The notes under the pieces: generated by a model
What the model was told of the DNA's origin: nothing
What the model saw: only the letters and a program-made list of their open reading frames with translations
The model's database searches: none
Assembly: GCA_023417885.1 (NCBI GenBank)
Contig: JAEZED010000140.1
Location: forward strand, 1 to 22,583
Source of the DNA: Planctomycetota bacterium
Lineage (GTDB): Bacteria; Planctomycetota; Phycisphaerae; Tepidisphaerales; Tepidisphaeraceae
Reading direction: 5' to 3'
Length of the DNA stretch: 22,583 nucleotides
Translations under genes and position numbers: made by a program
Shown here: positions 1-17,696 of the stretch, one piece after another
Layout of the letters: the number at the start of each line of letters is the position of its first letter
How positions within the stretch are numbered: the stretch's first letter is position 1

Positions 1-100
1 GCAAGCTTTCTCGCCGTCGCGGCGGCATGCGCCGCGGCGATCTGGCTCGGTACGCTCGGAGCGGACCTGGAGGTCTACGAGCTTCCGCCGATGTGAGCGT

Positions 101-2044
101 TCAGAAGGGGAGAGACTGGTCCATCCAGTCGTCGCTGCGGAGGACCTGCTTGCGGTGGAAGCGGGCGAGCTTCTCGGCGCGGGCCTGGGCGATGCCGATG
201 AGCCTTTCCGGGCCGATCGCGCGCCAGCGCTTGCGCAGCTTGTCGGCGTGGCGCTTCAGCAGATCGTCGTCGGCGCTGGCGAACATCTGCGCCACGCCCG
301 GATCTCCCTGGCGGGCGGCGCGACCGAAGAGCTGGCGATCCACCCGCCCGCTGCCGTGCGGCTCCGTCGCGATGACATGAAGCCCGCCGTTCTCGGCGAC
401 GCCGCGGCCGAGGTGGATGTCGGTGCCGCGCCCGGCCATGTTGGTGGCGACGGTGATCGCGCCCGGCTGCCCGGCTTCGGTGACGATCTGCGCCTCCTCC
501 CGGTCCTGCCGCGCGTTGAGGACGCGGTGCGGGAGGTTGCGCGCGGTGAGGCGGCGATCCACCTCCTCGCTCGACCAGACGCTGCGCGTGCCGATCAGCA
601 CGGGAACGCCCTTGCGGTGAAGTTCTTCGACGCGCTGGGCGACCGCCTCCCACTTCTCCTCGGCAGTCTCGAAGAAGCGCATCGGAAGCTGCTGCCGGAT
701 GCACGGCTTGTTCGTGGGAATGCGGACGACGGCGCGGTTGTAAATCTGCCACAACTCGCCGCGCGCCTCCCAGGCCGTACCCGTCATGCCCCCCATGATC
801 GGATACTGCCGGAAGAACCGCTGGAAGCTGAGGCGGGCGAGATTCTCCTTGTCGCTCGTGACCGCCAGCCCCTCCTTGATCTCCATCGCCTGGTGGAGGC
901 CGGAGCGCCAGGAGCGGTCGGGCATGGTGCGCCCGGTGAACTCGTCGATGATGACGATCTTCCCGTCCTCGCTGATCAGGTACTGCTCGTCCTTGTGGAA
1001 GCAGTTCTCCGCGACCAGCGCCTGCGTCACCAGTTCCTCCCGCCGGCGCCGCCCCGCCCAGAAGCCCTCGTCACGCTGCATCGACTCCGCCAGCTCGTGC
1101 AGCCGCGTCTTGCCGCGTCCCGTGAGATCGGCCTTCCGGTCGGTGCGATCGACGGTGTAGTCGCGACCCTCCTCCAGCCGCAGCGCCAAGTCGCGCGCCT
1201 CGCGGTAGAGCGGCTCGTTGGCGTTGCCGTCCGGCGAGTTGCTGATGATCAGCGGCGTGACCGCCTCGTCGATCAGCAGGGAGTCGGCCTCGTCCACGAT
1301 CGCCCGGAACAGGCCCGGCACGAGGCACGGCCGCGCCCCCTGCCCCGCCAGCATTGAGACGGCCGTCGAGGTGGAGCTGCGCCGGTCGCCGAGCTGGATC
1401 TGGTCGCGCAGAAAGTCGGCGACGAGCTCCTTGCTGGTGCTGTAGACCACGCCGCTGCGGTAGGCCTGGAAGCGCTCCTGCGGCGTCGTATCGTGGATCA
1501 CGTGCGCCACGCGCAGGCCGAGCATCTCGTAGAGCGGCCGGTTCCACTGCGCGTCGCGCGCCACGAGGTAGTCGTTGACCGTGATCACGTGCACCGGCCG
1601 GCCCGACCAACCCCAGATCGCCGCCGCGATGGCCGCGGTCAGCGTCTTGCCCTCGCCGGTGGCCATCTCGGAGATGTATCCGCGCGTCATGCCTGCGGCG
1701 CCCATGATCTGCACGTCGAAGGGGCGCTTCTCAAGCGTGCGGACCGCCGCCTCGCGCACGACGGCGAAGGCGCGCTCCAGGTCTCGCCCCTCCAGCTTGC
1801 CGAGCCGCGCCAGCGAGCGGAGGCGATTGACCTCCTCGCGGAACGCGCTGCTCCCCAGCTTCTTCACCTCCGGCTCGTGCTCCCCCACCGCGTCGGCAAA
1901 CGCGCGCAGCGATCGCAGCACGGGCGTCTTGTGGCGCACCCAGCCGACCAGCGCGTTGGCGGCCGTGTCCAGCCCCTTGACCTCAGGGGCCTTGACGCGG
2001 CGCGCGTCGAAGATGTGAAAGAGTTCGCCGGCGGCTGAGCTCAT
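101..2044 (-). CDS. SecA-like ATPase paralog, C-terminally minimal: nucleotide-binding domains 1 and 2 plus the preprotein cross-linking domain only, with no helical scaffold, wing, two-helix finger or C-terminal tail
   Basis: The 647-aa translation aligns by eye to the SecA N-terminal two-thirds: Walker A MATGEGKTLTAA, the VDEADSLLIDEAVTPLIIS (DEAD-like) motif, and TNMAGRGTDI with LHVIATEPHGSGRVDRQLFGRAARQGD of NBD2. The protein ends at ...ARFHRKQVLRSDDWMDQSLPF, which corresponds to the very start of the long HSD helix of E. coli SecA. There is a clean TGA stop at 101..103. GAGGG lies 8 nt upstream of the ATG, which is only 18 nt after the stop of the upstream gene. Confidence 0.85.
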   Translation of the reverse strand: MSSAAGELFHIFDARRVKAPEVKGLDTAANALVGWVRHKTPVLRSLRAFADAVGEHEPEVKKLGSSAFREEVNRLRSLARLGKLEGRDLERAFAVVREAAVRTLEKRPFDVQIMGAAGMTRGYISEMATGEGKTLTAAIAAAIWGWSGRPVHVITVNDYLVARDAQWNRPLYEMLGLRVAHVIHDTTPQERFQAYRSGVVYSTSKELVADFLRDQIQLGDRRSSTSTAVSMLAGQGARPCLVPGLFRAIVDEADSLLIDEAVTPLIISNSPDGNANEPLYREARDLALRLEEGRDYTVDRTDRKADLTGRGKTRLHELAESMQRDEGFWAGRRRREELVTQALVAENCFHKDEQYLISEDGKIVIIDEFTGRTMPDRSWRSGLHQAMEIKEGLAVTSDKENLARLSFQRFFRQYPIMGGMTGTAWEARGELWQIYNRAVVRIPTNKPCIRQQLPMRFFETAEEKWEAVAQRVEELHRKGVPVLIGTRSVWSSEEVDRRLTARNLPHRVLNARQDREEAQIVTEAGQPGAITVATNMAGRGTDIHLGRGVAENGGLHVIATEPHGSGRVDRQLFGRAARQGDPGVAQMFASADDDLLKRHADKLRKRWRAIGPERLIGIAQARAEKLARFHRKQVLRSDDWMDQSLPF

Positions 2045-2062
2045 GGAAAAACCCTCAACCCT

Positions 2063-4300
2063 CTACTGCTGCTGCTGCATGCCGCGCGTGGTGCGCTGCG
2101 TCTGGATGAGCTGGAGGAAGCCGCGCCACCACTGTCGCGCCAGCGGCTCGTCGTCCAGCTTCACGCGGACGTAGGCCCGCTGACCCGGCAGACACTCGCG
2201 TCCCCCGTCGGCGGCGACCGGGTTGTCCAGGATCACGCGCATCTCGAACTGGTCCAGCGCCGTCTTGTTCGGATCGCGCGGGTCGGGCGCCAGCGTTCCC
2301 CCGCCGGCGTACGTCAGCGACGGGTTGCGAACCTCGTTCTTGGCCGACTGGAGCAGCCGGATCTCATCGAGATTCAGCCCCTCCAGGTCGGTGGCGTAGC
2401 GGATCTCGTCGATCTCGCTGGCAAGCCGCACCTGGACCGTCCGGGTGGGGTCCGCCAGGATGCGTTGGAAGTCCTCCTGGCCGACGGTCACAAAGACCTC
2501 CAGCCGCTCGTCGTTCCGCACCTCGCCGATCGTCTGCCCGCGCTTCAGGTGACGCCCCAGCGCCTGGTCGATGTCGGGCGCGATAAGCTCGCCGGCGTTG
2601 GGCGCGACGACCGTCAGCTCCGCCACCTCGCGCTCCAGGACGGCCAGCGCCTCGTGCGCGGCCGTCACCTGCTGGCGGACGACGTCCGCCTCGGCGGCGC
2701 TGCTGTGCAGCTGGGCGGCGGCGAGCAGGATGCGGGCGCGGTTCAGCTCGATGCGCGCGACCTCCAGGCGCGTCGCCAGCGTCGGGTTCTCCAGGCGCAG
2801 CAGCACCTGCCCCGCCTCGACCTGCTCCCCGTCGCGGACGAGCACCTCCACGACCTGTCCGGGCGAGCGCACGACCGCGCGCCCGCGCTCCAGCGGCTCG
2901 CTGATCCCCTCGGCGCGCACGGCGCTGGGGAACGGGATGATCGCCAGCAGCACGACGGCGGCGCTCGCGACCGCCAGGGTGAAGCCCCAGGCGCGCGTGC
3001 GCTTGCGGTGCAGCTCCGGATCGGTGGTCAGGTACTTGAAGAGCTTGAAGAACGGAACGACGAAGAACGTCGTGATGGCCCCCGCGGCCAGGAAGAGCCC
3101 GACGATCTGGGCCCATTCCGGCAGCTGGTACATCACCATGATGATGATCGCAAAGCCGATGAAGATGCGGTAGATCGTGCTGGCGACGCTGTAGAAGACC
3201 AGCCACGCTTTCTGCCGCAGGGTCGGCGGGAGCGGCTGCGTCGTCTTCACGCGGAACACGTACCGCTTGATCAGCCCCAGCGTGTATTCGCGGCTCTTCT
3301 GCTGGAGGTTGGGGATCTCCAGCCAGTCGCTGAGCATGTAGTACCCGTCATACCGCAGCAGCGGGTTGGCGTTGAACAGGATGGTGCTGACCGAGGCGAT
3401 CAGGATCGTGTAGTAGGCGATCTGGTGAACCGGGTGGTTCTCGCCCGTCGCCGCCCACACGAAGACCGCGATGGCCGCCACGAACAGCTCGGCGATCATT
3501 CCGCCCGCCGCCACGAGGATGCGCTTCCACTTGCTGGGGAAGCCCCAGGCCGTGCTGGCGTCCACGTACGGGCAGGGCATCAGCACCAGGAACATGATGC
3601 CGACCTCGTGCACCTCCCCGCCGAACTTGCGGTTGAGGAAGGCGTGCCCCATCTCGTGCAGGAACTTGGTCACGAGGAAGGTCGCACCCAGCACCAGCCA
3701 CATCTCGATGCTGCCGCTGTTCAGGAAGTCGGTCGTCTGCGCGTAGAAGTCATCCAGCCGCGGCAGGATCACCGCCAGCGCCAGCAGCATGGTGGCGATC
3801 CACAGCATCCCGCCCCACTTCGTGATGAACGGCCCGACCAGCGGCATCCACCGCTTCAGGTAGTAGTCCGGATCCCAGAGCGGGATGCGCGGGAACAGGA
3901 TGTTCATCAGCCGGCCCTGGAACTTGCGCTGGCGCTGCTTCTTGTGGCGGCGCAGGAGCACCTGGGCGTCGGGGCTGATATTCGTCTCGATCAGGTTCGC
4001 AGCGTAAAGCTGCGTCAGGATCTGGATGATCTCCGGCTGCGTCGGCGCGTCGTCGGCAAGCTGCCCGCCCACCAGCTCCCACGCGTCGCCGACCGTCCGC
4101 GTCCCGTCGAGCAGGCCCACGAACCGGTAGGCGACGTCCGAGAGCCGGTGGAACTGGTTGCCCGCGGGATCGCGCACCACGTACCAGCGCTCACCGCGGT
4201 ACCACTGGCGTGAGATCTGTGCCGCGGCGCGCAGCCGAGGCTTGAGGTCCTTGACGCGGTACCAGCTCTCGCTGAAGGTTGGCCGGAGTTGGAGGGTCAT
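2063..4300 (-). CDS. Tripartite membrane protein: N-terminal PqqD-like (RRE-like) peptide-binding region, peptidase M50 (site-2 protease family) polytopic core, and C-terminal HlyD-type periplasmic adaptor domain
   Basis: 745-aa ORF. Residues ~30-108 (WYVVRDPAGNQFHRLSDVAYRFVGLLDGTRTVGDAWELV...EIIQILTQLYAANLIE) fit the PqqD/RRE pattern. About 8 predicted TM helices carry the zincin motif FLHEMGHAF and the second S2P motif NANPLLRYDGYY (NxxPxxxxDG). The C-terminal ~300 aa has a biotin-lipoyl-like hairpin (VVRSPGQVVEVLVRDGEQVEAGQVLLRLEN), a coiled coil and a beta-barrel typical of HlyD/MFP adaptors. Confidence 0.85.
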   Translation of the reverse strand: MTLQLRPTFSESWYRVKDLKPRLRAAAQISRQWYRGERWYVVRDPAGNQFHRLSDVAYRFVGLLDGTRTVGDAWELVGGQLADDAPTQPEIIQILTQLYAANLIETNISPDAQVLLRRHKKQRQRKFQGRLMNILFPRIPLWDPDYYLKRWMPLVGPFITKWGGMLWIATMLLALAVILPRLDDFYAQTTDFLNSGSIEMWLVLGATFLVTKFLHEMGHAFLNRKFGGEVHEVGIMFLVLMPCPYVDASTAWGFPSKWKRILVAAGGMIAELFVAAIAVFVWAATGENHPVHQIAYYTILIASVSTILFNANPLLRYDGYYMLSDWLEIPNLQQKSREYTLGLIKRYVFRVKTTQPLPPTLRQKAWLVFYSVASTIYRIFIGFAIIIMVMYQLPEWAQIVGLFLAAGAITTFFVVPFFKLFKYLTTDPELHRKRTRAWGFTLAVASAAVVLLAIIPFPSAVRAEGISEPLERGRAVVRSPGQVVEVLVRDGEQVEAGQVLLRLENPTLATRLEVARIELNRARILLAAAQLHSSAAEADVVRQQVTAAHEALAVLEREVAELTVVAPNAGELIAPDIDQALGRHLKRGQTIGEVRNDERLEVFVTVGQEDFQRILADPTRTVQVRLASEIDEIRYATDLEGLNLDEIRLLQSAKNEVRNPSLTYAGGGTLAPDPRDPNKTALDQFEMRVILDNPVAADGGRECLPGQRAYVRVKLDDEPLARQWWRGFLQLIQTQRTTRGMQQQQ

Positions 4301-4310
4301 TGGTAGAAAA

Positions 4311-4331
4311 GCGAGAAGCGAGAAGCGAGAA
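4311..4331 (-). repeat. Three perfect tandem copies of the heptamer GCGAGAA (plus strand), equal to UUCUCGC x3 on the minus-strand transcript; the array ends ~10 nt upstream of the start codon of the M50 fusion gene
   Basis: Direct reading gives aaaGCGAGAAGCGAGAAGCGAGAAacc. On the coding (minus) strand this is a pyrimidine-rich tract occupying the position where a Shine-Dalgarno sequence would normally sit. Confidence 0.9.
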
Positions 4332-4397
4332 ACCGGAGCGGGGCAGGAGGCGGAGTCGAGCAGGCGCGGAGCGCTGCATCGTCTTCTGGGTCCTGGC

Positions 4398-4415
4398 TTC
4401 CCGCTTCCCGCTCCT
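4398..4415 (-). repeat. Two tandem copies of GCGGGAA on the minus strand (TTCCCGC x2 on plus), immediately after the stop of the GAF-HlyD gene. They are complementary, allowing G-U wobbles, to the UUCUCGC array ~66 nt downstream in the same transcript
   Basis: Plus strand reads cttcccgcttcccgctcc. In RNA, 5'-GCGGGAAGCGGGAAGC pairs with 3'-CGCUCUUCGCUCUUCG as 16 bp including 2 G-U pairs. Confidence 0.8.
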
Positions 4416-4421
4416 TCTGAA

Positions 4422-6383
4422 CTAGATCCACAGCTTGAGGCGCACCCAGTCGGTCAGGCGGTGCGTCCACTGCCAGATGAGCGGGCGCTTGCCCACGTCG
4501 AGGCGCACCTCGCCGGTTCCGCCGGGACGCCAGAACTGGTCGGGCTCTCCGACAGGCGAGGCGTAGACGGTGAAGGCGTTGGTGCCCTGCGTCGCCTCCG
4601 CGGCCTCGATGATGCGATCGACCTTGATCGGCACCTTCAGGTCCGGCCGGGCGGCGGTGGCGAGCGTGCCGGTGCGACCTTCAGCGATGTCGTCGATATC
4701 GCGGTCGGCGACGGCGATCTCGATGCGCAGGTGGCTCGGATCGCCCACCAGAAGCAGCTCGTCGCCGAGCTGGACGCTGGTGTTCACCCGCTCGCGCAAG
4801 TCCGCGGCGCCGGGCACCTGGAGCACGACGCCGTTCATCGGCGCCTTGAGCGTGGCGCGGTCGATCTCGCGCTGGAGGTTGTCGATCTCGTGCTGGAGCG
4901 CCTTTGCCGACTCCTCCTCGGCGTCGGCCTCGGCGATGGCCGACGGGTTCTCACTGCGGCGCTGCCGGTAGGCGTAGGCGCGGGCCAGGGCCGACCGGCG
5001 CTCGCTCTGCTTCTGGCTCAGTTCCGACTCGAGCTGGCGGGTGTCGAGCTTCAGGAGCGGCTGGCCCGCGGTGACGGTGTCGCCGATGTCAACGAAGACC
5101 TGCTCGATGGTGCTGGCGAAGGGGGCGTCGACAATGCGGCGCTCCAGCGGGACGAAGCTGAAGGGGGCCGAGACGCGGTACATCGGCGAGTAGAGGCACA
5201 GGAAGAGCACCAGCGCGATGGCCGAGGCGATCAGCACCTTCGCCAGCGTGTGCTGGCGCAGGCCGAAGACCTTTTTCGTCGTGCGCTTCGTGCTCAGGCC
5301 CGCCTTGGTGATCAGGTATCGGTCGTTCTCGTACCGGTCGTAGAGCTGGGGCGCCAGCAGCTCGGCGGCGACGGCCAGGGCCGTCGATTCCTGAGGCGTG
5401 CTGGGCTTCTCCGGCGGGAACTCGAGCGTGAGAACGCCGACGATCTCGTCCTTGCGGCGCAGCGGGATGCTGGCGACGCGGTTGTTCCCCTCCATCTGCG
5501 AAAGGGTCATCGCCTCGCGGGTGACGTTGTCGGTGGAGGCGCCGGCCGGGTCGAACTGCGTGAACTCGTCCTGGTCGAGGCACTCCTCCATCACCTTGAC
5601 GATCTGGACGGAGAGCTCCTGCTTCTTGTCGAACTCTTCGGTGTGGCTGATCGCCTGGAGCTTGACGTGTCGGCCCCGTACCCAACCGATGGCGACGCGG
5701 GCGGCGCCGGCGCGCGTCGCCAGCTCGTTGCAGAGGCCGGCGGCCGAGGCGTGGAAGTTCTCGCCCGTGGCGACGGAGCTTGCGAATTGGAAGACATCCT
5801 GGTGGGTCTTGGCGACCTGCCGGGCCTGCTCGTTCTGCCGTTTCAGAAGGAAGAAGTCGAAGTACCCCGCGACGAGCTGCATCGTGTTGAGCCGCTGGAG
5901 GGCACGGCTCTGGTCCTTGCAGCGCGTTACGACCGCCGTCGCGGCGACGACGCGGTTCTCGTTGCGAAGCAGGGTAACGAGGCAGAACTGCGGATCGACG
6001 TCGTCGGTCCCCTCGCCGACGCGCAGGGCCCCGTCCTTGTCCTCGAGGATGCACTGGGTGACGATTTCCCGGAAGGCCATGATCGCCTGCCGGCGGATCG
6101 CCTCCTCGGAGTTGTCCGGACGCACGTGGGCGACGGTGCGCAGCTCCGGCTTGCCGTCACCGGTCTGCCCCTCGAGGAGAAAGGCGGCCGCCTCGGTGCC
6201 TGCGACGACGATCGCCTGCGTGGTGATCAGGTCGTGCATGAACTCGGGCAGGTTGCCGTCGTTGGCGACCAGCCGCTGGACGAGCCGGGCCCGCGCGATG
6301 CGGTTCTCCTGCTTTTTCTGTTCTTCCTGCTGCCGCTGTTGCTCCTCCGGCTGGGGGGCGTACGGCTGGGCGACGGATGCCAT
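4422..6383 (-). CDS. HlyD-family adaptor with N-terminal tandem GAF-like cytoplasmic sensor domains (GAF-GAF-TM-HlyD)
   Basis: 653-aa ORF. The N-terminal ~380 aa form two ~150-aa alpha/beta blocks with a GAF-like pattern, which is an inference. A single TM follows (VLIASAIALVLFLCLYSPM). After it come a biotin-lipoyl-like motif (IEQVFVDIGDTVTAGQPLLKLD), a long coiled coil and a beta-barrel/MP domain (LKAPMNGVVLQVPG...). GAGG lies 9 nt upstream of the ATG. Confidence 0.8.
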   Translation of the reverse strand: MASVAQPYAPQPEEQQRQQEEQKKQENRIARARLVQRLVANDGNLPEFMHDLITTQAIVVAGTEAAAFLLEGQTGDGKPELRTVAHVRPDNSEEAIRRQAIMAFREIVTQCILEDKDGALRVGEGTDDVDPQFCLVTLLRNENRVVAATAVVTRCKDQSRALQRLNTMQLVAGYFDFFLLKRQNEQARQVAKTHQDVFQFASSVATGENFHASAAGLCNELATRAGAARVAIGWVRGRHVKLQAISHTEEFDKKQELSVQIVKVMEECLDQDEFTQFDPAGASTDNVTREAMTLSQMEGNNRVASIPLRRKDEIVGVLTLEFPPEKPSTPQESTALAVAAELLAPQLYDRYENDRYLITKAGLSTKRTTKKVFGLRQHTLAKVLIASAIALVLFLCLYSPMYRVSAPFSFVPLERRIVDAPFASTIEQVFVDIGDTVTAGQPLLKLDTRQLESELSQKQSERRSALARAYAYRQRRSENPSAIAEADAEEESAKALQHEIDNLQREIDRATLKAPMNGVVLQVPGAADLRERVNTSVQLGDELLLVGDPSHLRIEIAVADRDIDDIAEGRTGTLATAARPDLKVPIKVDRIIEAAEATQGTNAFTVYASPVGEPDQFWRPGGTGEVRLDVGKRPLIWQWTHRLTDWVRLKLWI

Positions 6384-6647
6384 AGGAGGGCCTCACACTG
6401 CGAGTGACATCGATTCGGCGCCCCTTTCAGGGGACGGGAACCAGATGATGGAACGGACGCTCGTCGCGAATGGGACGAATCGGGGCAGGCGGAGGTTCAT
6501 CTCCTGCCAAACCCCACCTTGCCTTCTTGAACCTGCTGGCCGGCTTGCCGGGCGGCGCCCCGGCCCCTGCTTCAACGCTAAGTCTAGCAACCTCCCCGCT
6601 CTTTCTGCCCGCGGAAACGCCAAATGGTCGCGGCGCACGCCGTCCGA

Positions 6648-7544
6648 TTAAGCCCCGTCCTGCCCGGGAAGGCGCACTTCGACCCGCAGGCCTGCCGGAC
6701 GACCCTCCGGATTGGACAGCTCCGCCCGGAACGGCAGGCGGGAGGTCGTGCCCGAGGGGTTGCCCACCGGGTTGATGAAGACGATTGTCGCGTCGCGCCA
6801 CTGGTCCTCCCCCTCGTAGCGCACCTGGATCGTGTCGCCGAGCTTCAACGCCATCACCTCGCGGGCCGGCACCGTCGGTATCTCTACGTAAAGCGGGTCG
6901 ATCTTCACGACACGCATGGCGGGCGTCTGGGGGCCAAAGACCTCACCCACGGTCGCCTCGATTTGCTGGACCACCCCGGTCTCGGGGCTGCGCAGGGTCT
7001 TTTGCTCGACGATGTACTGCTGCTCCTCCGCCCGGTGCGTTGCAACCTGCCCCAGCCGCTGCTCCTCGAGGATCCGCGTGTCCGCCGCCTTCACCTCGAG
7101 TTGGGCGCGCTCCGCCTCGAGCGGGGAGAGCGCAGGCCCGGCCTCCTCGGCGGCCTTGAGCTCGACACGCGCCAGGTCCGCCTGCGTGCGGGCAAGATCG
7201 ACGCGATCCCCGACGTTGGCCTCCAGCTGAAGGGCCTGGAGCCGGGCGATGTCGGCCCGGATGTCCTGCACCATCAGCACCTGCCCGGCTTCCACCTGGT
7301 CCCCCTCCTTCACGTTCACTTCCAGGATCTGCCCCAGGTTCGGGAAGGCCAGATCCATCTCGCGGCTGGGGATGGTGTTCCCCTCGAACAACGCCGCCGC
7401 CTCCTGCGACGGGCGATATTCCTGGGTGCTGGCGCGATCCTGCGCCACGAGCGCCCCGGCGGTGAGGAGGATCATCGGCACGGCCAGGAGCCCCGGTGGG
7501 CGGGCGGGGGGCGCTCGGGGCCGGTCTTGGGTCGATAGTGTCAT
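6648..7544 (-). CDS. HlyD/membrane-fusion-protein family periplasmic adaptor subunit; first gene of the operon
   Basis: 298-aa ORF with N-terminal signal/TM (LLAVPMILLTAGALVA), a lipoyl-like hairpin (GQILEVNVKEGDQVEAGQVLMVQD), a coiled coil, a beta-barrel (LRSPETGVVQQIEATVGEVF) and a C-terminal MP domain. Confidence 0.8.
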   Translation of the reverse strand: MTLSTQDRPRAPPARPPGLLAVPMILLTAGALVAQDRASTQEYRPSQEAAALFEGNTIPSREMDLAFPNLGQILEVNVKEGDQVEAGQVLMVQDIRADIARLQALQLEANVGDRVDLARTQADLARVELKAAEEAGPALSPLEAERAQLEVKAADTRILEEQRLGQVATHRAEEQQYIVEQKTLRSPETGVVQQIEATVGEVFGPQTPAMRVVKIDPLYVEIPTVPAREVMALKLGDTIQVRYEGEDQWRDATIVFINPVGNPSGTTSRLPFRAELSNPEGRPAGLRVEVRLPGQDGA

Positions 7545-7835: not shown

Positions 7836-8054
7836 ATGGGGACCGGCCTGATCGCAGCCGAGCGGATTCGGATGCGGCGCGTGACGCGCCGGCGATGGAC
7901 GATCGGGCTGAGCCTGATGGTGCTGGCGGCGCTGACGGTTGCGGCCGGCGTCGTGATGGCGCTATTCGAGTTTTCGGAGGGCCAGCGGGCGATGGAGGTC
8001 GCAGGTAGCGGCGTGGCCCTCTGGTGGCTGGGCTTCTTCTGGTGCCGCGAGTGA
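7836..8054 (+). CDS. Possible small membrane protein (about 72 aa, or 61 aa from the internal ATG): basic N-terminus followed by two hydrophobic helices
   Basis: This is the 3' third of track ORF 7551..8054. Only this part has genome-typical codon usage (strong G/C third positions: ctg, gcg, gtg) and hydrophobic segments (IGLSLMVLAALTVAAGVVMALF and VALWWLGFFW). The upstream two-thirds is R-rich nonsense. There is no clear RBS and the start is uncertain. Confidence 0.3.
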   Translation: MGTGLIAAERIRMRRVTRRRWTIGLSLMVLAALTVAAGVVMALFEFSEGQRAMEVAGSGVALWWLGFFWCRE

Positions 8055-8067: not shown

Positions 8068-8451
8068 TCAGGCGTATCCCAGTTCCTCGAGGTCGTCCTC
8101 GTCGAGGCCGAAATGGTGGCCCAGCTCGTGGAGGAGGGTGATCCGCACCTGTTCCACGAGGTCCTCCCTGTCCTCGCTGGCGTCCTCGATGTCCTCCCTG
8201 AAGAGCGTGATCACGTCCGGGAGGCGGGCGTGATCCTCGATATGCCGGTCGGTCAGAGGAACGCCTTCGTAGAGGCCCAGGAGCAGCTCATCGTCCGCCA
8301 TCCCCAGCTCCCGGAGCTTGCGGCGGGAGGGGCGCGGCTCGATCCGGATCGGCACTTCCGCCTCGATCGTGGCGCGCCATCGCTCCGGCAGGCGAGAAAT
8401 TGCCTGGGCAACAAGGTCCGAGAACTCGACATCGGTCACGTCAAACGGCAT
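8068..8451 (-). CDS. Zincin_1-like (DUF1025) mini metallopeptidase family protein
   Basis: C-terminal TLLHELGHHFGLDEDDLEELGYA matches the HExxH-containing signature of small ~120-aa Zincin_1 proteins. The start is taken at the internal ATG (MPFDVTDVEF...), because the upstream part of the track ORF is R/P-rich with poor codon usage. Confidence 0.6.
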   Translation of the reverse strand: MPFDVTDVEFSDLVAQAISRLPERWRATIEAEVPIRIEPRPSRRKLRELGMADDELLLGLYEGVPLTDRHIEDHARLPDVITLFREDIEDASEDREDLVEQVRITLLHELGHHFGLDEDDLEELGYA

Positions 8452-8552: not shown

Positions 8553-9566
8553 ATGCCAAAGCCGCTTGCACTTTCAGGGATGATGTTTCTCGTGCTGGGT
8601 CTGCTCAGCGGATGCTCCATCCCCAGCTTTCTCATCACGCCCGTCTCCAGCAGCCCCGAGCTGAAGGAGACGGTCGTCGCCGACGGCACGCGCAAGCACA
8701 AGATCGCCATCATCCCCGTCGAGGGGATGCTCATGAACACCCGCATGGGCTCGGGCGGAATTCTCGGCGCCGAGGAAAACAAGGTCAGCCTCTTCAAGCA
8801 GCAACTCGACGCCGCGGCCGCGGATGATCGCGTCGAAGCGGTCATCCTCCGCATCAACAGCCCGGGCGGCACCGTCGCGGCAAGCGACCTGATGTACGAG
8901 CTGGTGCGCGACTTCAAGCAGAAGACGGGCAAGCCCGTCGTTGCCACCTGCCAGGACGTCTGCGCCAGCGGCGGCTACTACATCGCCAGCGCCGCCGACG
9001 AGATCCATGTCCTTCCCACGAGCGTGGTCGGGAGCATCGGGGTGATCTTCGAGACATTCGACATCTCCCCCCTTCTCGACAAGATCGGGGTCCGGATCAC
9101 GCCGCTCCAGAGCGGGCGGTACAAGGACTTGGGCAGCCCGTTCAACGGCCTGTCGGACGACGAGCGGGAGATCATGCAGGGGATGGTGGACGAGTTCTAC
9201 GCCCGTTTTGTGGGAGTGGTCCGTGACTCGCGCCAGGTGCGCGACGAGGAGATCGCCTTCGACGGGCGGGTCTTTACCGGACAGCAGGCCTACGAGCAGA
9301 ACCTCGTGGACGCCGTCTGCCAGCTTCCCGAAACGATCGCCCGCGTGAAGGGGATGATCGGGGAGCGGGATGCCCGGGTGGTGATGTATCGCCGGCCGTA
9401 TGGATACACCGGCAGCATTTACGCCAGAAGCGGCGACCTGTCGCCGCGCGCGTCCGAGTCAGCGGCTGGCGCGGATGACCCTTCAGCATGGGTATCGCGC
9501 CTGCCGATGGTAAATCAGGTGAGCCAGGCCCTGGAGCCGGGCTTTTACTACCTGTGGATGCCGTAG
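8553..9566 (+). CDS. sppA: Signal peptide peptidase SppA (36K type), predicted lipoprotein
   Basis: Lipobox LLSGC. ClpP/crotonase-fold motifs of SppA are present: IAIIPVEGML, RINSPGGTVAAS, the catalytic Ser context CASGGYYIASAADEI, and a Lys in PLQSGRYKDLGSP. ACGAGG lies 9 nt upstream of the ATG. Confidence 0.85.
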   Translation: MPKPLALSGMMFLVLGLLSGCSIPSFLITPVSSSPELKETVVADGTRKHKIAIIPVEGMLMNTRMGSGGILGAEENKVSLFKQQLDAAAADDRVEAVILRINSPGGTVAASDLMYELVRDFKQKTGKPVVATCQDVCASGGYYIASAADEIHVLPTSVVGSIGVIFETFDISPLLDKIGVRITPLQSGRYKDLGSPFNGLSDDEREIMQGMVDEFYARFVGVVRDSRQVRDEEIAFDGRVFTGQQAYEQNLVDAVCQLPETIARVKGMIGERDARVVMYRRPYGYTGSIYARSGDLSPRASESAAGADDPSAWVSRLPMVNQVSQALEPGFYYLWMP

Positions 9567-9590: not shown

Positions 9591-10007
9591 ATGATCGCGT
9601 TGCGGTGCAACAGCTGCGGGCAGGAACAGGAACTGGATGACGCGTTCATCGGCAGCGTGTGCCGTTGCCGCGCGTGCGCCGCCATCCAGGCCGTTCCGGA
9701 ACTCCCCGCCCCACTCGATTCTTCAGCAAGACTTCCCGCACCGGTGATGGAAGGGACGCTGCTTTACTGTCCCGCCCCGGCCGGCGAGCGAAGCAACCGC
9801 CCCAGGACCTGCGCCCTTCCCCAGCGCAAGGCTCCGGCGTCGGCCGACCGGACACTCATCATGGCGATCGGCCTGGCTGCCGCGCTGGCGCTGGGCGCCG
9901 CCGGCGCCGCCATCGCCGTCATCGTCGCCGCCGAAAGGCCGATGGTGCCCGAGTCGCCGCCGCATGTGGCGGTGGATGTCCTGGCCCGATCGATCGACGG
10001 GCCGTAA
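9591..10007 (+). CDS. Hypothetical zinc-ribbon protein with a C-terminal transmembrane helix
   Basis: N-terminal CxxC...CxxC pattern (CNSCGQEQELDDAFIGSVCRCRAC), a Pro-rich linker, then the hydrophobic helix IMAIGLAAALALGAAGAAIAVIVAA. A strong RBS, GAGGAGGA, sits 8 nt upstream of the ATG. Confidence 0.5.
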   Translation: MIALRCNSCGQEQELDDAFIGSVCRCRACAAIQAVPELPAPLDSSARLPAPVMEGTLLYCPAPAGERSNRPRTCALPQRKAPASADRTLIMAIGLAAALALGAAGAAIAVIVAAERPMVPESPPHVAVDVLARSIDGP

Positions 10008-10168
10008 CACGACACTTCCAAAAGCAGGCGCGGTTTGGCCGCGAATGCGGGCGCCGGTAACATCCGCCCGCTGCCGGCGGGCAGGCCGTGCCTCTTCTTT
10101 CTGCACCTCTCACCTCTTTGTCGTCGCCACGGAAGGTTTGCCTCGTGCCCAAGGTCGCATCGCGTGCC

Positions 10169-10837
10169 ATGCCCCGTTCCACCGCCAAGCGCGTGACGCG
10201 ATCGACCCGGGCCAAGCGCCCCGCCTCGCGCGGCGGCAAGGGACAGCGCTCGCCGGCCGCGGGCCTGCCGCGCGGCGTGATCGTCGGTGGAGCGCTGCTG
10301 GCGGCCCTGGGGGTGACGTGCATCCTGCTGGCGATCCTCTCTCCCTCGCCGCTGACGCCCGACGTCACGGCCCGCCTCTTCGTCACGAGCACCGGCGTCG
10401 AGCCGCTGGAGTCGGTGGTCGCCCCGGCTGCCCCCGGCCGCTGGGACACGATCTACATCCACCACAGCAAGACGCCCGGCGGGGACACCTCGACGCTTGC
10501 CGACCTTGCCCGGGCGCGTGGAATCGTCGGCCCGCCGGACCACTTCGTGATCGGCAACGGGGACGGGATGGGGGATGGGGAGGTGCAGGTGACGAGCCGG
10601 TGGAGCGAGCAGTCCCCCGCCGCCTCGCCGGCCCCGGGGGCGCGGATCGAGCCGGGGTGCATCAGCATCTGCCTGATCGGCGATTTTGACCGGATGCGGC
10701 CGACGGAGGCGCAGCGGGCGTCGCTGGCGCGGCTCCTGGGCGTGCTGGAGGATCGCCTGCAACTGGGGGCGGACCGGGTGCTGCAATTGTCACAGGAAGG
10801 ATCGGCGGCCGGGGTCGGTCGGCATTTTGTCCGATGA
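10169..10837 (+). CDS. N-acetylmuramoyl-L-alanine amidase (Amidase_2/PGRP-like) domain protein with a basic N-terminal tail and TM anchor
   Basis: WDTIYIHHSKTP...HFVIGNGDGMGDGEVQVTSRW...CISICLIGDF...PTEAQRASLARLLGVLEDRLQL follows the Amidase_2 pattern (IxIHHT ... HFxI ... GIxLxG ... Q...L). The track ORF begins at 10088, but its first 27 codons have atypically low GC3, so the start is more likely ATG ~10169 or GTG ~10145, the latter preceded by GGAAGG. Confidence 0.5.
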   Translation: MPRSTAKRVTRSTRAKRPASRGGKGQRSPAAGLPRGVIVGGALLAALGVTCILLAILSPSPLTPDVTARLFVTSTGVEPLESVVAPAAPGRWDTIYIHHSKTPGGDTSTLADLARARGIVGPPDHFVIGNGDGMGDGEVQVTSRWSEQSPAASPAPGARIEPGCISICLIGDFDRMRPTEAQRASLARLLGVLEDRLQLGADRVLQLSQEGSAAGVGRHFVR

Positions 10838-11159
10838 AGGAATGGTGATCGGTAAGTCCCGGGTTGGCCGGGGCATGAGGCGCGCGGACGAAATGCGTCG
10901 CCGGCGGCGTTTTGGTGACGGGGGGAGCAGGACGTCCCGTAGAATGCGAAGCGGGCATGCACCGCAGGGTGGTGTGTTGGCGCAGCGCGAGTGGGTGAAT
11001 GTGCGTAAGGGGTGCGCTAAGCTACGCTACTCGGGTCGGCACCGTGTTGCCGTCGGCCGGGACGGAGGGCTCGGCCGGGGAGGAAGAGGGTCTGTCGCCG
11101 ACAGCCCGCGCGGCCCAGATTGGTGCCGGATACCGCAGCAGATTTAGCGTCATACGTTC

Positions 11160-11987
11160 ATGCCTGAACAACTGCTCCACTACAAGATCCTTGACGTCCT
11201 GGGGAAAGGTGCCGCCAGCACCATCTATCGTGCGCAGGATCTGAACACCGGGCGCGTCGTCGCGCTGAAGCACGTCACCCGGGTGAAGCAGAAGGACATT
11301 CGCTACATCGAGCAGATGGAGACCGAGTACGAGGTCTCCAAGTCGTTCACGCACCCGAACTTGCGCCGGGCGCTGATGCTCCGCATCAACAAGACCCTCC
11401 TGATGAAGGTCACCGAGGCGATCCTCGCCCTCGAGTACGTCGATGCCAAGCCGCTCGAGCGCGCCCTACCGCCCGACCTGAACGACGTGCTGGACATCTT
11501 CCTCCAGGCAGCCCTCGGGCTTCAGGCGATGCACCGCATGGGCTACGCCCACTGCGACATCAAGCCCAGCAACCTCCTGGTCGACGGGCAGATGCAGGTC
11601 AAGGTGATCGACTTCGGCCAGGCCTGCCGGATCGGAACCGTCAAGGAGCGCATCCAGGGCACGCCCGACTACATCGCCCCCGAGCAGGTCACCCGCCAGC
11701 CCGTCACCGAGGCGACTGACGTTTTTAATCTCGGCGCCACCCTCTACTGGGCCAGCACCGGCAAGCACATCCCCACCGCCTATCACGCCAAGCGGAAGGG
11801 GGAGAACAGCTTCCTCGTCGACAGCCTCTTCAAGACGCCGCGCGACCTGAACCCGGAGGTGCCGCTTCCGGTCAGCGAGGCGATCATGCAGTCGGTCGCC
11901 ACCAGTCCCAAGCACCGCCCCCAGACGATGGACGAGTTCATCCGCAAGCTCGAGCTCGGAAGGCACGTGCTCAAGGCCGCCCACTGA
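11160..11987 (+). CDS. Stand-alone Ser/Thr protein kinase (Hanks-type catalytic domain only)
   Basis: Glycine loop LGKGAASTIY, VALKHV (VAIK), catalytic loop HCDIKPSNLL, DFG as IDFGQA, APE as YIAPEQV. 275 aa, with no TM or sensor domains. Confidence 0.85.
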   Translation: MPEQLLHYKILDVLGKGAASTIYRAQDLNTGRVVALKHVTRVKQKDIRYIEQMETEYEVSKSFTHPNLRRALMLRINKTLLMKVTEAILALEYVDAKPLERALPPDLNDVLDIFLQAALGLQAMHRMGYAHCDIKPSNLLVDGQMQVKVIDFGQACRIGTVKERIQGTPDYIAPEQVTRQPVTEATDVFNLGATLYWASTGKHIPTAYHAKRKGENSFLVDSLFKTPRDLNPEVPLPVSEAIMQSVATSPKHRPQTMDEFIRKLELGRHVLKAAH

Positions 11988-12031
11988 CAGACATCCGCGC
12001 GGCGGAGCTTTTCCGTCGTCGTTCGCACAGA

Positions 12032-12108: not shown

Positions 12109-13329
12109 ATGGCAGAATCACCCAGGAAGATCATCCTTGCCTACTCCGGCGGCCTCGACACCAGCGTCATCCTCCCATGGCTCAAGGAGCGATACCCGGG
12201 CGTGAAGCTCGTGGCCTTCGCCTGCGAACTGGGCCAGGGCAGCGAGCTGGCAGGCGTCGAGGAAAAGGCCAGGAAGAGCGGCGCCGACGAGGTGATCGTC
12301 GCAGACCTCCGCCGGGAGTTCGCAGAGCAGTATTGCTTCCCGATGCTTCGCGCCCACGCGATTTATGAGCGTGACTACCTGCTCGGCACGAGCATCGCGC
12401 GCCCGCTGATCGCCAAGGCGCAGGTCGAGGCGGCTCGGCAGACCGGCGCGGACGCCGTCGCCCACGGCGCCACCGGCAAGGGAAACGACCAGGTGCGCTT
12501 CGAGCTGACCTACATGGCCCTGGCGCCGGACCTGAAGATCATCAGCCCCTGGAAGATGGCCGACTTCGAGCTGCGCGACCGCGAATCCGCCGTCGAGTAT
12601 GCCCAGAAGCACGGCATCCCGATCGCCCAGACGAAGGAGAAGATCTACTCCCAGGACCGCAACCTCTGGCACATCAGCCACGAGGGGGCGGAGATCGAGC
12701 ATCCGGACCAGGAGCCGGCGTGGGATCGCTGCCTGACGATGAGCGTTCCACCGGAGCAGGCGCCCGACGAGCCGGAGACCGTGACAATCCAGTTCGAGCA
12801 GGGCAACCCGCGCGCCGTCAACGGGGCCGCGCTGGATGGCGATGCCCTGATCGCGCGCCTCAACGAGATCGGCGGCCGGCACGGCGTGGGCGTCACCGTG
12901 CTCGTCGAGAACCGCCTCGTCGGCATGAAGAGCCGGGGCGTCTACGAGACGCCGGGCGGGACGATTCTCTACGCCGCCCACAACGCGCTCGAGCAGCTCA
13001 CCCTCGAGCGCGACCTGTTCCACTTCAAGGAGCAGATGGCGCTGCGCTACGCGGAGCTGGTCTACTACGGGCAGTGGTTCCACCCGCTGCGCCAGAGCAT
13101 GCAGGCGTTCATCGACCACGCCAGCCGCAGCGTGACGGGCGAGGTGACGGTCAAGCTCTTCAAGGGCCGCGCCACCGCCGTCAGTGCGACCAGCCCCAAC
13201 AGCCTCTACGACCCAGGCCTGGCCAGCTTCAGCATGGAGGGCTACGACGTGACAGCGGCCCGCGGCTTCATCGACTGCTTCGGCCTCCCGATGAAAGTTG
13301 CCGGCCTGCGCGAGCGACAGCCGCGGTGA
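12109..13329 (+). CDS. argG: Argininosuccinate synthase
   Basis: N-terminal PP-loop IILAYSGGLDTSVIL and conserved blocks (AHGATGKGNDQVRFE, NLWHISHEG, ENRLVGMKSRGVYETPGGTIL). 406 aa is the typical length. Confidence 0.95.
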   Translation: MAESPRKIILAYSGGLDTSVILPWLKERYPGVKLVAFACELGQGSELAGVEEKARKSGADEVIVADLRREFAEQYCFPMLRAHAIYERDYLLGTSIARPLIAKAQVEAARQTGADAVAHGATGKGNDQVRFELTYMALAPDLKIISPWKMADFELRDRESAVEYAQKHGIPIAQTKEKIYSQDRNLWHISHEGAEIEHPDQEPAWDRCLTMSVPPEQAPDEPETVTIQFEQGNPRAVNGAALDGDALIARLNEIGGRHGVGVTVLVENRLVGMKSRGVYETPGGTILYAAHNALEQLTLERDLFHFKEQMALRYAELVYYGQWFHPLRQSMQAFIDHASRSVTGEVTVKLFKGRATAVSATSPNSLYDPGLASFSMEGYDVTAARGFIDCFGLPMKVAGLRERQPR

Positions 13330-17581: not shown

Positions 17582-17696
17582 CTGGCCGGGCCGGTCGCCC
17601 ATCCAGCCCCCCTGCGGCTGTTCTCCCATCCCGAACCTCTATCCCCGCCGGCCCGGCCCGCGGGCGGCGCCGGGGGCTGAATTTCGCGCCTCCTCC

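What the first reader, a model, noticed from the sequence alone, without database searches (positions are those of the whole stretch)
101..2044. SecA paralog terminating exactly at the start of the helical scaffold: motor and preprotein clamp without the two-helix finger or Zn tail
The alignment landmarks are all present: Walker A, the DEAD-like motif, PPXD and the NBD2 GRGTD block. The ORF nonetheless stops at ...FHRKQVLRSDDWMDQ, which is equivalent to E. coli ...NFDIRKQLLEYDDVANDQ where the long HSD helix begins. The protein therefore lacks HSD, HWD, IRA1 (the finger that inserts into SecY) and the SecB/Zn-binding tail. It retains the ATPase and the preprotein-binding clamp but should not drive translocation through SecYEG in the canonical way. 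That is consistent with a repurposed motor dedicated to the co-encoded M50/HlyD machinery. Only ~100 nt follow the stop inside the window, so the alternative is a split gene whose second half lies beyond the window edge.
Basis: partly seen in the sequence, partly recalled or inferred. Interest (0 to 1): 0.7.

Follow-up and report, generated by a model that had tools for sequence, protein, structure and literature searches.

The report
Naturally truncated SecA motor, M50/HlyD operon
This is an intact, widely conserved short copy of the protein-export motor SecA that keeps the ATPase and the substrate clamp but lacks the parts that work with the SecY channel. It sits in an operon with a membrane protease and periplasmic adaptor proteins, an arrangement already described from genome comparisons in 2015 and never tested experimentally.

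Summary
Window 101..2044 (-) is a 647-aa ORF with SecA_DEAD, the preprotein cross-linking domain and the SecA P-loop domain, and no scaffold/wing domain. Profile alignment to solved SecA structures ends at B. subtilis residue 606. [quoted passage not shown]

It is not a split gene or pseudogene. A convergent gene ends 4 nt after its stop codon. Downstream genes differ between relatives and none carries the missing domains. More than 390 listed homologues, down to about 40% identity, are almost all 595-721 aa and share a conserved tail.

The operon HlyD, GAF-HlyD, PqqD-like/M50/HlyD, SecA-like recurs in every related locus examined, sometimes beside TolC-like genes.

Kamneva et al. [quoted passage not shown] The finding is correct but already known, and its function is still untested.

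Most likely it is the ATPase of a SecYEG-independent, T1SS/PCAT-like exporter. That mechanism is inferred, not shown.

The parts
101..2044 (-). SecA-like ATPase ('secondary SecA_DEAD domain protein'), 647 aa, soluble: NBD1 - PPXD - NBD2 - short scaffold-helix stub
   Evidence: ORF; Pfam SecA_DEAD/PP_bind/P-loop_SecA; below every NCBIfam SecA and SecA2 cut-off; no hydrophobic segment; AlphaFold2 model matches solved SecA structures.
1643..1666 (-). Walker A, MATGEGKT (res 127-134)
   Evidence: Translation; T129-K133 invariant in 71 family sequences.
1280..1294 (-). Walker B / DEAD-like motif, DEADS (res 251-255)
   Evidence: Translation; D251, E252 and D254 invariant.
881..1216 (-). Preprotein cross-linking domain (PPXD, res 277-388), including the conserved DEFTGR...GLHQA.E.KEG stretch
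   Evidence: Pfam PF01043 E=6.8e-26; D367, G371, R372 and E391 invariant.
419..433 (-). NBD2 motif GRGTD (res 538-542)
   Evidence: Translation; G538, R539 and G540 invariant.
104..211 (-). Scaffold-helix stub and family-specific conserved C-terminal tail (res 612-647; ...AQARAEKLARFHRKQVLRSDDWMDQSLPF)
   Evidence: Aligns to B. subtilis SecA up to residue 606. Predicted single helix 612-644. W640, M641, D642, P646 and F647 are invariant in close relatives. The pattern AQ.RAE...R..VL..D.WL...L.F is seen across distant representatives.
2063..4300 (-). 745-aa fusion protein. Cytoplasmic PqqD/RRE-like domain (about res 20-105), polytopic M50 (site-2-protease type) metalloprotease domain with HEMGH and NANPLLRYDG motifs, then a periplasmic HlyD/MexA-like adaptor with alpha-hairpin (about res 456-745)
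   Evidence: Pfam M50, PqqD, HlyD. NCBIfam daptide_HExxH E=6e-46 over res 22-415, below its cut-off, repeated in four orthologues. Catalytic residues invariant in 40 sequences. Hydrophobic segments. AlphaFold2 pLDDT 82.9. Foldseek top hits MexA/AcrA/MacA.
4422..6383 (-). 653-aa protein: cytoplasmic N-terminal region with GAF domain (res 1-378), one transmembrane helix (379-397), periplasmic HlyD-type adaptor
   Evidence: Pfam GAF, HlyD_3, HlyD_D23; hydrophobicity; conserved upstream of the M50 gene in all related loci.
6648..7544 (-). 298-aa HlyD-family periplasmic adaptor with N-terminal membrane anchor; first gene of the operon
   Evidence: Pfam HlyD_D23, HlyD_3; hydrophobic segment 16-34.
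1..96 (+). 3' end of a convergent gene (300-aa predicted membrane protein in the full contig) whose stop codon lies 4 nt from the SecA-like stop codon
   Evidence: Translation ...LEVYELPPM*; full gene in L001 11949-12851; no SecA_SW similarity.

Best explanation
The ORF is an intact, selectively maintained, naturally truncated SecA paralogue. [quoted passage not shown] It keeps the DEAD-type ATPase motor (NBD1/NBD2), the preprotein cross-linking domain and about 30 residues of the scaffold helix, followed by a family-specific conserved tail. It has no wing domain, no two-helix finger/IRA1 and no Zn/SecB-binding tail.

It is the last gene of a four-gene operon. The other three genes each carry a periplasmic HlyD/MexA-type adaptor module:
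- a small anchored adaptor;
- a protein with a large cytoplasmic GAF-containing region;
- a polytopic M50 intramembrane metalloprotease with an N-terminal cytoplasmic PqqD/RRE-like peptide-recognition domain.

Most likely mechanism (inferred). The SecA-like protein is the cytoplasmic ATPase of a SecYEG-independent, type-I-secretion-like export machine that spans the envelope. It would be analogous to a peptidase-containing ABC exporter, with the ABC ATPase replaced by a SecA motor and the C39 peptidase replaced by an RRE-M50 protease.
1. The RRE-like domain recognises a leader on an unfolded peptide or protein cargo.
2. The SecA-like clamp and motor hold and thread the cargo.
3. The M50 domain cleaves the leader and provides or gates the inner-membrane passage.
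4. The three adaptor modules bridge to a TolC-like outer-membrane channel encoded elsewhere.
5. With IRA1 absent, ATPase control must come from partners, possibly the GAF protein.

Shown: gene integrity, domain content, conservation, gene linkage, intact catalytic motifs, topology and fold predictions. Inferred: physical association, cargo, direction of transport and independence from SecYEG.
For: Domain content and truncation point.

Integrity and selection. The 120 closest homologues are 643-669 aa at 66-88% identity. The best 150 representatives of 50%-identity clusters are almost all 595-721 aa. A further 120 profile hits are 641-684 aa, apart from one of 830 aa. ATPase motifs are invariant and the C-terminal tail is conserved.

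Not split. A convergent gene lies 4 nt downstream. Downstream genes vary and none has SecA_SW similarity.

Linkage. The same order, HlyD / GAF-HlyD / M50-HlyD / SecA-like, is found in L001-L004, L010, L011 and L012, with start/stop overlap in L010 and L011. More than 20 homologue pairs of the two proteins share the same longest-contig length.

TolC-like genes are adjacent in L009 and L010.

M50 protein. HExxH and NxxPxxxxDG motifs are invariant. The first 415 residues are homologous over their whole length to RiPP leader-peptide intramembrane metalloproteases, E about 1e-41 to 1e-46 in five orthologues. A PqqD hit recurs at residues 40-104 in four of five orthologues. The model shows an RRE-like beta3/alpha3 N-terminus and a MexA/AcrA-like adaptor with alpha-hairpin.

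Topology puts the RRE and GAF regions in the cytoplasm with the soluble ATPase.

Literature. The same module and the same ATPase-co-option idea appear in PMC4452313. The M50 protease EpeP is thought to both cleave and export its peptide (PMC10885120). E. coli SecA-N68 has constitutive ATPase activity and cannot translocate (PMC5603524). IRA1 loss deregulates the ATPase (PMC3101351).
Against: There is no experimental evidence for any step. No follow-up to the 2015 paper was found in the library.

No cargo gene is conserved next to the operon. The only small ORF nearby (72 aa, window 7836-8054) is not conserved in L003 or L004.

No TolC-like gene lies in the window or within 10 kb in four of the loci.

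The PqqD hits are below Pfam's gathering score, and the daptide-protease hit is below NCBIfam's equivalog cut-off.

The PPXD stretch that contacts SecY in canonical SecA (DEFTGR...GLHQA.E.KEG) is fully conserved here, and SecA-N68 still binds SecYEG tightly. Action at SecYEG is therefore not excluded.

In M. extorquens AM1 the M50, SecA-like and HlyD genes were barely expressed in exponential growth.
Confidence: 0.55

Rival explanations
1. Accessory SecA working at SecYEG, similar to a 'SecA2-only' system. The truncated protein would dock on the housekeeping SecYEG channel, alone or with full-length SecA, and deliver a special client set. The M50/HlyD proteins would then act on those clients in the membrane or periplasm.
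For: E. coli SecA-N68, nearly the same fragment, binds SecYEG with high affinity and binds signal peptides (PMC5603524). The PPXD segment that contacts SecY is conserved. The closest sequence relatives outside the family are SecA and SecA2.
Against: SecA-N68 cannot catalyse translocation, and the two-helix finger and most of the scaffold are absent. The gene is translationally coupled to a polytopic membrane protein of its own and is never seen beside secY/secE/secG in the loci read. It scores below all NCBIfam SecA2 cut-offs.
Confidence: 0.2
2. ATP-driven regulated intramembrane proteolysis or signalling rather than export. The SecA-like motor would act as an unfoldase that feeds a cytoplasmic or membrane substrate into the M50 site-2-type protease under control of the GAF sensor, by analogy with AAA+ domains feeding FtsH.
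For: M50 proteases classically perform regulated intramembrane proteolysis. A GAF sensor domain is part of the module. The catalytic site is invariant. No cargo or transporter gene lies in the operon.
Against: All three partner proteins carry periplasmic adaptor modules of the kind that dock to TolC-type channels, and one has a clear alpha-hairpin. TolC-like genes are adjacent in some loci. Such adaptors have no obvious role in a purely proteolytic signalling device. No sigma or anti-sigma pair is conserved nearby.
Confidence: 0.15
3. Broken gene: a frameshifted or split secA whose C-terminal half is encoded elsewhere, or a decaying pseudogene.
For: Only that the window ends 100 nt after the stop codon.
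Against: A convergent gene starts 4 nt after the stop codon. Length and C-terminal tail are conserved in hundreds of homologues across cluster representatives down to about 40% identity. Catalytic motifs are invariant. No neighbour shows SecA_SW similarity.
Confidence: 0.02

Closest known systems
Secondary SecA_DEAD domain proteins and their T1SS-related neighbours (Kamneva, Poudel & Ward 2015, PLoS One, PMC4452313)
   Same: Same architecture: SecA_DEAD plus PPXD, with the scaffold/wing domain absent or reduced to a fragment. Same phylum among the carriers (Planctomycetes). Same neighbours: a HlyD protein, a GAF-HlyD protein and a weak-M50/HlyD protein, with OEP genes occasionally nearby. Same hypothesis that the ATPase is co-opted in place of an ABC transporter.
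   Different: Nothing essential; this locus is one more member, from an uncultured Tepidisphaeraceae-like genome. Added here, and not in that paper: the exact truncation point; the conserved C-terminal tail; the PqqD/RRE-like domain; the homology of the M50 part to RiPP leader peptidases; and the size of the family in current metagenomes.
E. coli SecA-N68 (engineered truncation at residue 610; PDB 5K9T)
   Same: Same domain set: NBD1, PPXD, NBD2. Lacks wing, IRA1/two-helix finger and Zn tail. It appears among the structural matches. Its known behaviour is constitutive ATPase activity, binding of SecYEG and signal peptides, and no translocation.
   Different: N68 is a laboratory fragment. The window protein is a natural, conserved gene with about 30 extra scaffold-helix residues, a conserved tail, an N-terminal extension of about 30 aa, and dedicated membrane partners.
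SecA2 of Gram-positive bacteria and mycobacteria
   Same: A second, specialised SecA paralogue present alongside the housekeeping SecA. Sequence similarity is high (NCBIfam E 1e-106 to 1e-151).
   Different: SecA2 proteins keep the scaffold and two-helix finger; solved SecA2 chains are 778-786 aa. They work with SecYEG or SecY2. The window protein scores below all SecA2 cut-offs and has M50/HlyD partners instead.
Type I secretion and peptidase-containing ABC exporters (HlyB-HlyD-TolC; bacteriocin PCATs)
   Same: A cytoplasmic ATPase, a leader-processing peptidase, HlyD-type periplasmic adaptors and (in some loci) a TolC-like channel. The overall logic is one-step export with leader removal.
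   Different: There is no ABC, RND or MFS transporter. The ATPase is a SecA-type superfamily-2 motor. The peptidase is an intramembrane M50 metalloprotease rather than a C39 cysteine protease. There are three different adaptor-bearing proteins instead of one.
RiPP intramembrane M50 leader peptidases (daptide protease NF041824; YydH/EpeP/LiaK NF058609)
   Same: The first 415 residues of the M50-HlyD protein are homologous along their whole length. HExxH is intact. EpeP is thought to both cleave and export its peptide.
   Different: Scores are below the equivalog cut-offs. This protein is fused to a periplasmic adaptor. No precursor peptide or modifying enzymes are nearby.
SecA-like domains of giant Omnitrophota/Actinobacteria proteins (bioRxiv 10.1101/2023.11.21.568195)
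   Same: SecA DEAD plus preprotein-binding domains without the scaffold/wing domain, proposed to act apart from canonical SecA.
   Different: Those domains are embedded in proteins of tens of thousands of residues with their own transmembrane segments. This one is a free-standing protein of about 650 aa in a four-gene operon.

Membership tests
Canonical housekeeping SecA | DEAD-type motor NBD1/NBD2 with Walker A/B and arginine-finger motifs | tested here: met
   Pfam SecA_DEAD 2.4e-87 and P-loop_SecA 9.1e-53; motifs present and invariant.
Canonical housekeeping SecA | Preprotein cross-linking domain inserted in NBD1 | tested here: met
   PF01043 E=6.8e-26, res 277-388.
Canonical housekeeping SecA | Complete helical scaffold with two-helix finger/IRA1, plus helical wing domain (Pfam SecA_SW) | tested here: not met
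   No SecA_SW hit at E<=10. The alignment to solved SecA ends at B. subtilis residue 606 of 841. Only about 30 scaffold residues are kept.
Canonical housekeeping SecA | C-terminal linker with Zn/SecB-binding motif | tested here: not met
   The protein ends ...DDWMDQSLPF with no Cys/His cluster.
Canonical housekeeping SecA | Score above the NCBIfam equivalog cut-off | tested here: not met
   PRK12904 scores 561 bits against a cut-off of 814; TIGR00963 scores 545 against 800.
SecA2 (accessory Sec systems) | Score above a SecA2 equivalog cut-off; scaffold and two-helix finger retained | tested here: not met
   TIGR04397 505/1085, TIGR04221 454/725, TIGR03714 452/930, NF012136 355/1100. Solved SecA2 chains are 778-786 aa.
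SecA2 (accessory Sec systems) | Linked SecY2/Asp genes, or dependence on SecYEG | tested here: not met
   No secY-like or asp-like gene in the window or in the related loci read. Dependence on SecYEG is not testable here.
Secondary SecA_DEAD domain proteins (Kamneva et al. 2015) | SecA_DEAD (plus PPXD) protein with SecA_SW absent or only a small fragment | tested here: met
   definition.
Secondary SecA_DEAD domain proteins (Kamneva et al. 2015) | Conserved neighbourhood: HlyD protein, GAF-HlyD protein, M50-like/HlyD protein | tested here: met
   Window operon and seven related loci; definition.
Secondary SecA_DEAD domain proteins (Kamneva et al. 2015) | Present in addition to a full-length canonical SecA in the same genome | not testable with these tools
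   Only a 50.8-kb contig of this genome is available. The paper reports this co-occurrence for the planctomycete genomes it analysed.
Secondary SecA_DEAD domain proteins (Kamneva et al. 2015) | Phylogenetic placement inside the published clade (for example with M. extorquens META1p2400) | not tested
   The reference sequences from the paper could not be fetched. Indirect support: relatives are Planctomycetota plus one MAG labelled Burkholderiales, all with the same operon.
Type I secretion / tripartite efflux systems | Periplasmic adaptor (membrane fusion protein) with alpha-hairpin | tested here: met
   Three HlyD-domain proteins. The model of the M50-HlyD C-terminus matches MexA/AcrA/MacA with E about 1e-14, hairpin at 506-560.
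Type I secretion / tripartite efflux systems | TolC-family outer-membrane channel | tested here: inconclusive
   None in the window. OEP-domain genes are adjacent in L009 and L010.
Type I secretion / tripartite efflux systems | ABC, RND or MFS inner-membrane transporter as energising component | tested here: not met
   No such gene in the operon in any locus read. It should therefore not be filed as a canonical T1SS.
RiPP intramembrane M50 leader peptidases (daptide / YydH-EpeP type), for the neighbouring 745-aa protein | HExxH and NxxPxxxxDG catalytic motifs in a polytopic domain | tested here: met
   HEMGH at 215-219 and NANPLLRYDG at 310-319, invariant in 40 sequences.
RiPP intramembrane M50 leader peptidases (daptide / YydH-EpeP type), for the neighbouring 745-aa protein | Score above the equivalog cut-off; precursor peptide and modification genes nearby | tested here: not met
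   157 bits against a cut-off of 300. No precursor or tailoring genes in the window.

The most novel reading that the evidence does not exclude
The operon encodes an uncharacterised class of secretion machine that does not use SecYEG. A SecA-type polypeptide motor, not an ABC transporter, would power one-step export through an inner-membrane RRE-M50 protease gate, a hetero-oligomeric ring of three different HlyD-type adaptors and a TolC-like channel, with leader recognition and cleavage built into the gate. The conserved C-terminal tail (...DDW[LM]D..L.F) of the motor would be its docking element.
Probability: 0.35. Interest if true: 0.8.

Novelty: already known. Interest (0 to 1): 0.35.

Why it matters
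SecA is normally thought of only as the motor of the SecYEG channel. A large, conserved family keeps just the motor and substrate clamp and is always linked to a membrane protease and TolC-docking adaptors. More than 150 clusters at 50% identity are visible here. This suggests the SecA motor has been reused for a different export route in Gram-negative bacteria.

That idea has been in print since 2015 but has never been tested, so the locus is a good experimental target rather than a discovery. This analysis adds four things: the exact truncation point (a natural 'N68 plus 30 residues'); a conserved C-terminal tail; a peptide-recognition-like domain on the M50 protease together with its kinship to RiPP leader peptidases; and the resulting analogy to peptidase-containing ABC exporters. 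Together these give concrete, testable predictions.

Tried and rejected
(1) Split gene or pseudogene. Rejected using the extended contig, the variable downstream genes and family-wide length conservation.

(2) Missing scaffold/wing domains supplied by a neighbour. A Pfam scan at E<=10 of the GAF-HlyD N-terminus, the M50-HlyD protein, the small HlyD protein and the convergent gene gave no SecA_SW hit. The 515-aa gene downstream in Humisphaera borealis has no Pfam hit.

(3) Full-length secA in the same genome.

(4) Experimental follow-up of the 2015 paper. Five literature searches found none. The Chem Rev review of tripartite systems does not mention the module in the part of its text that is held.

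(5) Cargo gene. No small ORF is conserved next to the operon. The 72-aa ORF at 7836-8054 looks like a small membrane protein and is absent from L003 and L004.

(6) Anti-phage defence. A PADLOC scan gave only one insignificant hit (PbeA, E about 1e-3, no separate stretch).

(7) Single-sequence alignment of the last 47 residues to solved SecA failed. A 71-sequence family profile was needed to show that the tail is the start of the scaffold helix.

(8) Foldseek on the whole M50-HlyD model was dominated by the adaptor part. It gave no independent structural test of the RRE-like or M50 parts.
Full report
**What is in the sequence**

The window has a 647-codon ORF at 101..2044 on the minus strand.
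- Pfam finds SecA_DEAD (E=2.4e-87, res 40-432), the preprotein cross-linking domain (E=6.8e-26, res 277-388) and the SecA P-loop domain (E=9.1e-53). It finds nothing for the scaffold/wing domain, and still nothing when the last 99 residues are scanned at E<=10.
- Walker A (MATGEGKT, 127-134), DEADS (251-255) and GRGTD (538-542) are present.
- phmmer against solved structures gives SecA chains at E about 1e-120, aligned only to the N-terminal two-thirds of those chains.
- An AlphaFold2 model (mean pLDDT 74.7) matches B. subtilis SecA with Foldseek E about 1e-42 and TM 0.63-0.66. The engineered fragment SecA-N68 is among the hits.
- The protein has no hydrophobic segment.

**Where exactly it ends**

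A single-sequence search aligns residue 614 with E. coli SecA residue 606 and then loses the signal. A profile built from 71 family members at 39-64% identity aligns through B. subtilis residue 606. It pairs the family tail '...aqrraer..rqRrsvlrsdewlde' with '...[25 protein letters not shown]'.

The E. coli scaffold is defined as residues 611-670 plus 755-835, and the wing as 671-754 (PMC5603524). On that definition the protein keeps about 29-30 residues of the first scaffold helix. It lacks the remainder of the scaffold, the wing, the IRA1/two-helix finger and the Zn tail. The model shows one long helix at 612-644 whose exposed end has low confidence.

However, the cut lies about 30 residues inside the scaffold rather than at its first residue, and the protein ends four residues later (SLPF).

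**Not a broken gene**

The first 96 nt of the window are the 3' end of a convergent gene, whose stop codon lies 4 nt from the SecA-like stop codon. The same contig, recovered with more flank (L001 and L002), shows this is a 300-aa membrane-protein gene with no SecA similarity.

In relatives the downstream gene differs:
- a co-directional 515-aa gene with no Pfam hit in Humisphaera borealis;
- a convergent 194-aa gene in L004;
- an esterase-like gene in L010;
- a PEP-CTERM protein in L011.

None encodes the missing domains.

Length is conserved across the family.
- The 120 nearest homologues (66-88% identity; Tepidisphaeraceae, Phycisphaerae, H. borealis) are 643-669 aa.
- The best 150 representatives of 50%-identity clusters are almost all 595-721 aa.
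- 120 more profile hits are 641-684 aa, apart from one of 830 aa.
- A 41%-identical relative is 640 aa.

The ATPase motifs are invariant. The C-terminus is conserved: W640, M641, D642, P646 and F647 are invariant among close relatives. The pattern AQ.RAE...R..VL..D.WL...L.F(A/S)G is visible across distant representatives. This is a stable, selected architecture.

**Context**

The gene is the last of four co-directional genes, at 7544..101 on the minus strand.
1. A 298-aa HlyD-type adaptor with an N-terminal anchor.
2. A 653-aa protein with a cytoplasmic region of about 378 aa containing a GAF domain, one transmembrane helix and a periplasmic HlyD-type adaptor.
3. A 745-aa protein with a cytoplasmic N-terminal domain, a polytopic M50 domain and a periplasmic HlyD-type adaptor.
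4. The SecA-like gene, starting 18 nt after the M50 gene's stop codon.

This is supported.

The same order recurs in H. borealis (L003), L004, L010, L011 and a MAG labelled Burkholderiales (L012). In L010 and L011 the M50 and SecA-like genes abut or overlap. More than twenty homologue pairs of the two proteins come from contigs of identical length. TolC-like (OEP) genes lie directly upstream in L009 and 2.5 kb downstream in L010. There is none in the window.

**The M50 partner**

Its catalytic motifs HEMGH (215-219) and NANPLLRYDG (310-319) are invariant in 40 homologues.

Residues 22-415 match, along the whole model, the NCBIfam model for the daptide-biosynthesis intramembrane metalloprotease (E=6e-46). 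They match the YydH/LiaK epipeptide protease model more weakly. Both are below the equivalog cut-offs. The same holds in four orthologues.

A sub-threshold PqqD hit at residues 40-104 recurs in four of five orthologues. The AlphaFold2 model (pLDDT 82.9) has three strands followed by three helices there, the layout of a RiPP recognition element. I did not get an independent structural match for this domain.

The C-terminal part matches MexA, AcrA and MacA with E about 1e-14 and has an alpha-hairpin at 506-560. One such M50 protease, EpeP, is thought to both cleave and export its peptide (PMC10885120).

**What is already known**

[quoted passage not shown] These proteins lack the SecA_SW domain or keep only a small fragment of it.

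The paper showed that they form a clade separate from the canonical SecA of the same genomes. It also showed that they sit in a conserved locus with HlyD proteins, a GAF-HlyD protein and a weak-M50/HlyD protein, sometimes with OEP genes nearby.

The authors proposed that the ATPase is co-opted in place of an ABC transporter, with the M50 protein as a possible membrane pore. They stressed that the function is unknown.

Five further literature searches found no experimental follow-up.

**Mechanism**

Experiments on the E. coli fragment SecA-N68 (residues 1-610) show constitutive ATPase activity, tight binding to SecYEG and signal-peptide binding, but no translocation. IRA1, part of the scaffold, is the brake on the ATPase. 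By inference, a natural 'N68 plus 30 residues' is a competent polypeptide-binding ATPase. It cannot push substrates through SecY on its own, and its ATPase must be regulated by something else.

The best-supported reading combines several facts:
- obligate linkage to a polytopic protease that carries a cytoplasmic peptide-recognition-like domain;
- three TolC-docking-type adaptor modules;
- occasional adjacent TolC-like genes.

On that reading it is the motor of a SecYEG-independent, T1SS/PCAT-like exporter. In this machine a SecA-type motor replaces the ABC ATPase and an RRE-M50 protease replaces the C39 peptidase. I put about 0.95 on the identity statement and about 0.4-0.5 on this mechanism.

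Rivals:
- Action at SecYEG as an accessory SecA. The SecY-contacting PPXD stretch is conserved and N68 binds SecYEG.
- An ATP-fed intramembrane proteolysis or signalling device without export. The GAF sensor and classical M50 roles favour it; the three adaptor modules argue against it.
- A broken gene, which is effectively excluded.

**Membership**

It is not a canonical SecA: scaffold, wing and tail are absent, and it scores 561 bits against a cut-off of 814. It is not a SecA2, as it falls below all four cut-offs. It is not a canonical T1SS, since there is no ABC, RND or MFS transporter.

It meets the two defining features of the 2015 family that could be tested, namely architecture and neighbourhood. 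Co-occurrence with a full-length secA could not be tested: only a 50.8-kb contig is available, and the single genome scan returned only truncated relatives.

**Verdict**

Novelty is 'already known' at the level of comparative genomics, and the function is still open. Interest is modest as a finding, but the locus remains a worthwhile experimental target.

Noticed in passing
proteins P0278, P0282, P0288, P0340: NCBI records name several members of this truncated-SecA family 'prepilin peptidase', which looks like a propagated misannotation. Others are named 'preprotein translocase subunit SecA' or 'hypothetical protein'.
   Followed up: no
L011 5481-5861 (+), and L011 3638-4330 and 12372-13022: In one marine-sediment relative a DUF3467 gene (126 aa, E=5e-18) sits inside the operon between the small HlyD and GAF-HlyD genes. 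Two PEP-CTERM-domain proteins flank the operon and are possible accessory or cargo candidates.
   Followed up: partly
L009 330-3176 (+) and L010 14530-17191 (-): A 948-aa protein with TolC-type OEP repeats lies directly upstream of a 640-aa SecA-like gene (41% identical). In L010 an OEP gene and a further small HlyD gene lie 2.5 kb downstream of the operon.
   Followed up: partly
window 2044 down to about 1925 (-), residues 1-40 of the SecA-like protein: The family has an N-terminal extension of about 30 residues relative to canonical SecA. Several positions are invariant among close relatives (E7, F12, R15, V17, K18, P20, D26, G34), and a GLD motif is kept in distant ones. It could be a docking or membrane-binding element.
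   Followed up: no
window 17385-18563 (+) and 18617-20554 (+): A YqiJ_N/NfeD-like membrane protein is followed by a 645-aa SPFH/Band-7 (flotillin-like) protein, a typical NfeD-SPFH pair. Separately, an S49/NfeD-type peptidase lies at 8553-9566 (+), next to a Zincin_1 gene at 8068-8451 (-). This second pair is syntenic with the operon in Humisphaera borealis.
   Followed up: no
window 13959-17012 (-): A 1017-aa ORF has no Pfam match at E<=0.001. The adjacent 183-aa ORF (17078-17629, -) also has no match.
   Followed up: no
window 7836-8054 (+): A 72-aa ORF divergent from the operon is Arg-rich at the N-terminus and has two hydrophobic stretches. It has no Pfam hit and is not conserved upstream of the operon in L003 or L004.
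   Followed up: partly
L008 about 9800-12000: The SecA-like region of this 2.5-Mb MAG contig (53% identity) is broken into several overlapping ORFs. This is probably long-read frameshift error rather than real decay.
   Followed up: no
protein P0271: An 830-aa protein gives the best score to the family profile but covers only 74% of the query in BLASTP. It may be a longer or fused variant of the family.
   Followed up: no
window 11160-11987 (+): A 275-aa Ser/Thr protein kinase domain protein is followed by argininosuccinate synthase (12109-13329, +) and a cupin (13391-13906, +). These are ordinary housekeeping context.
   Followed up: no
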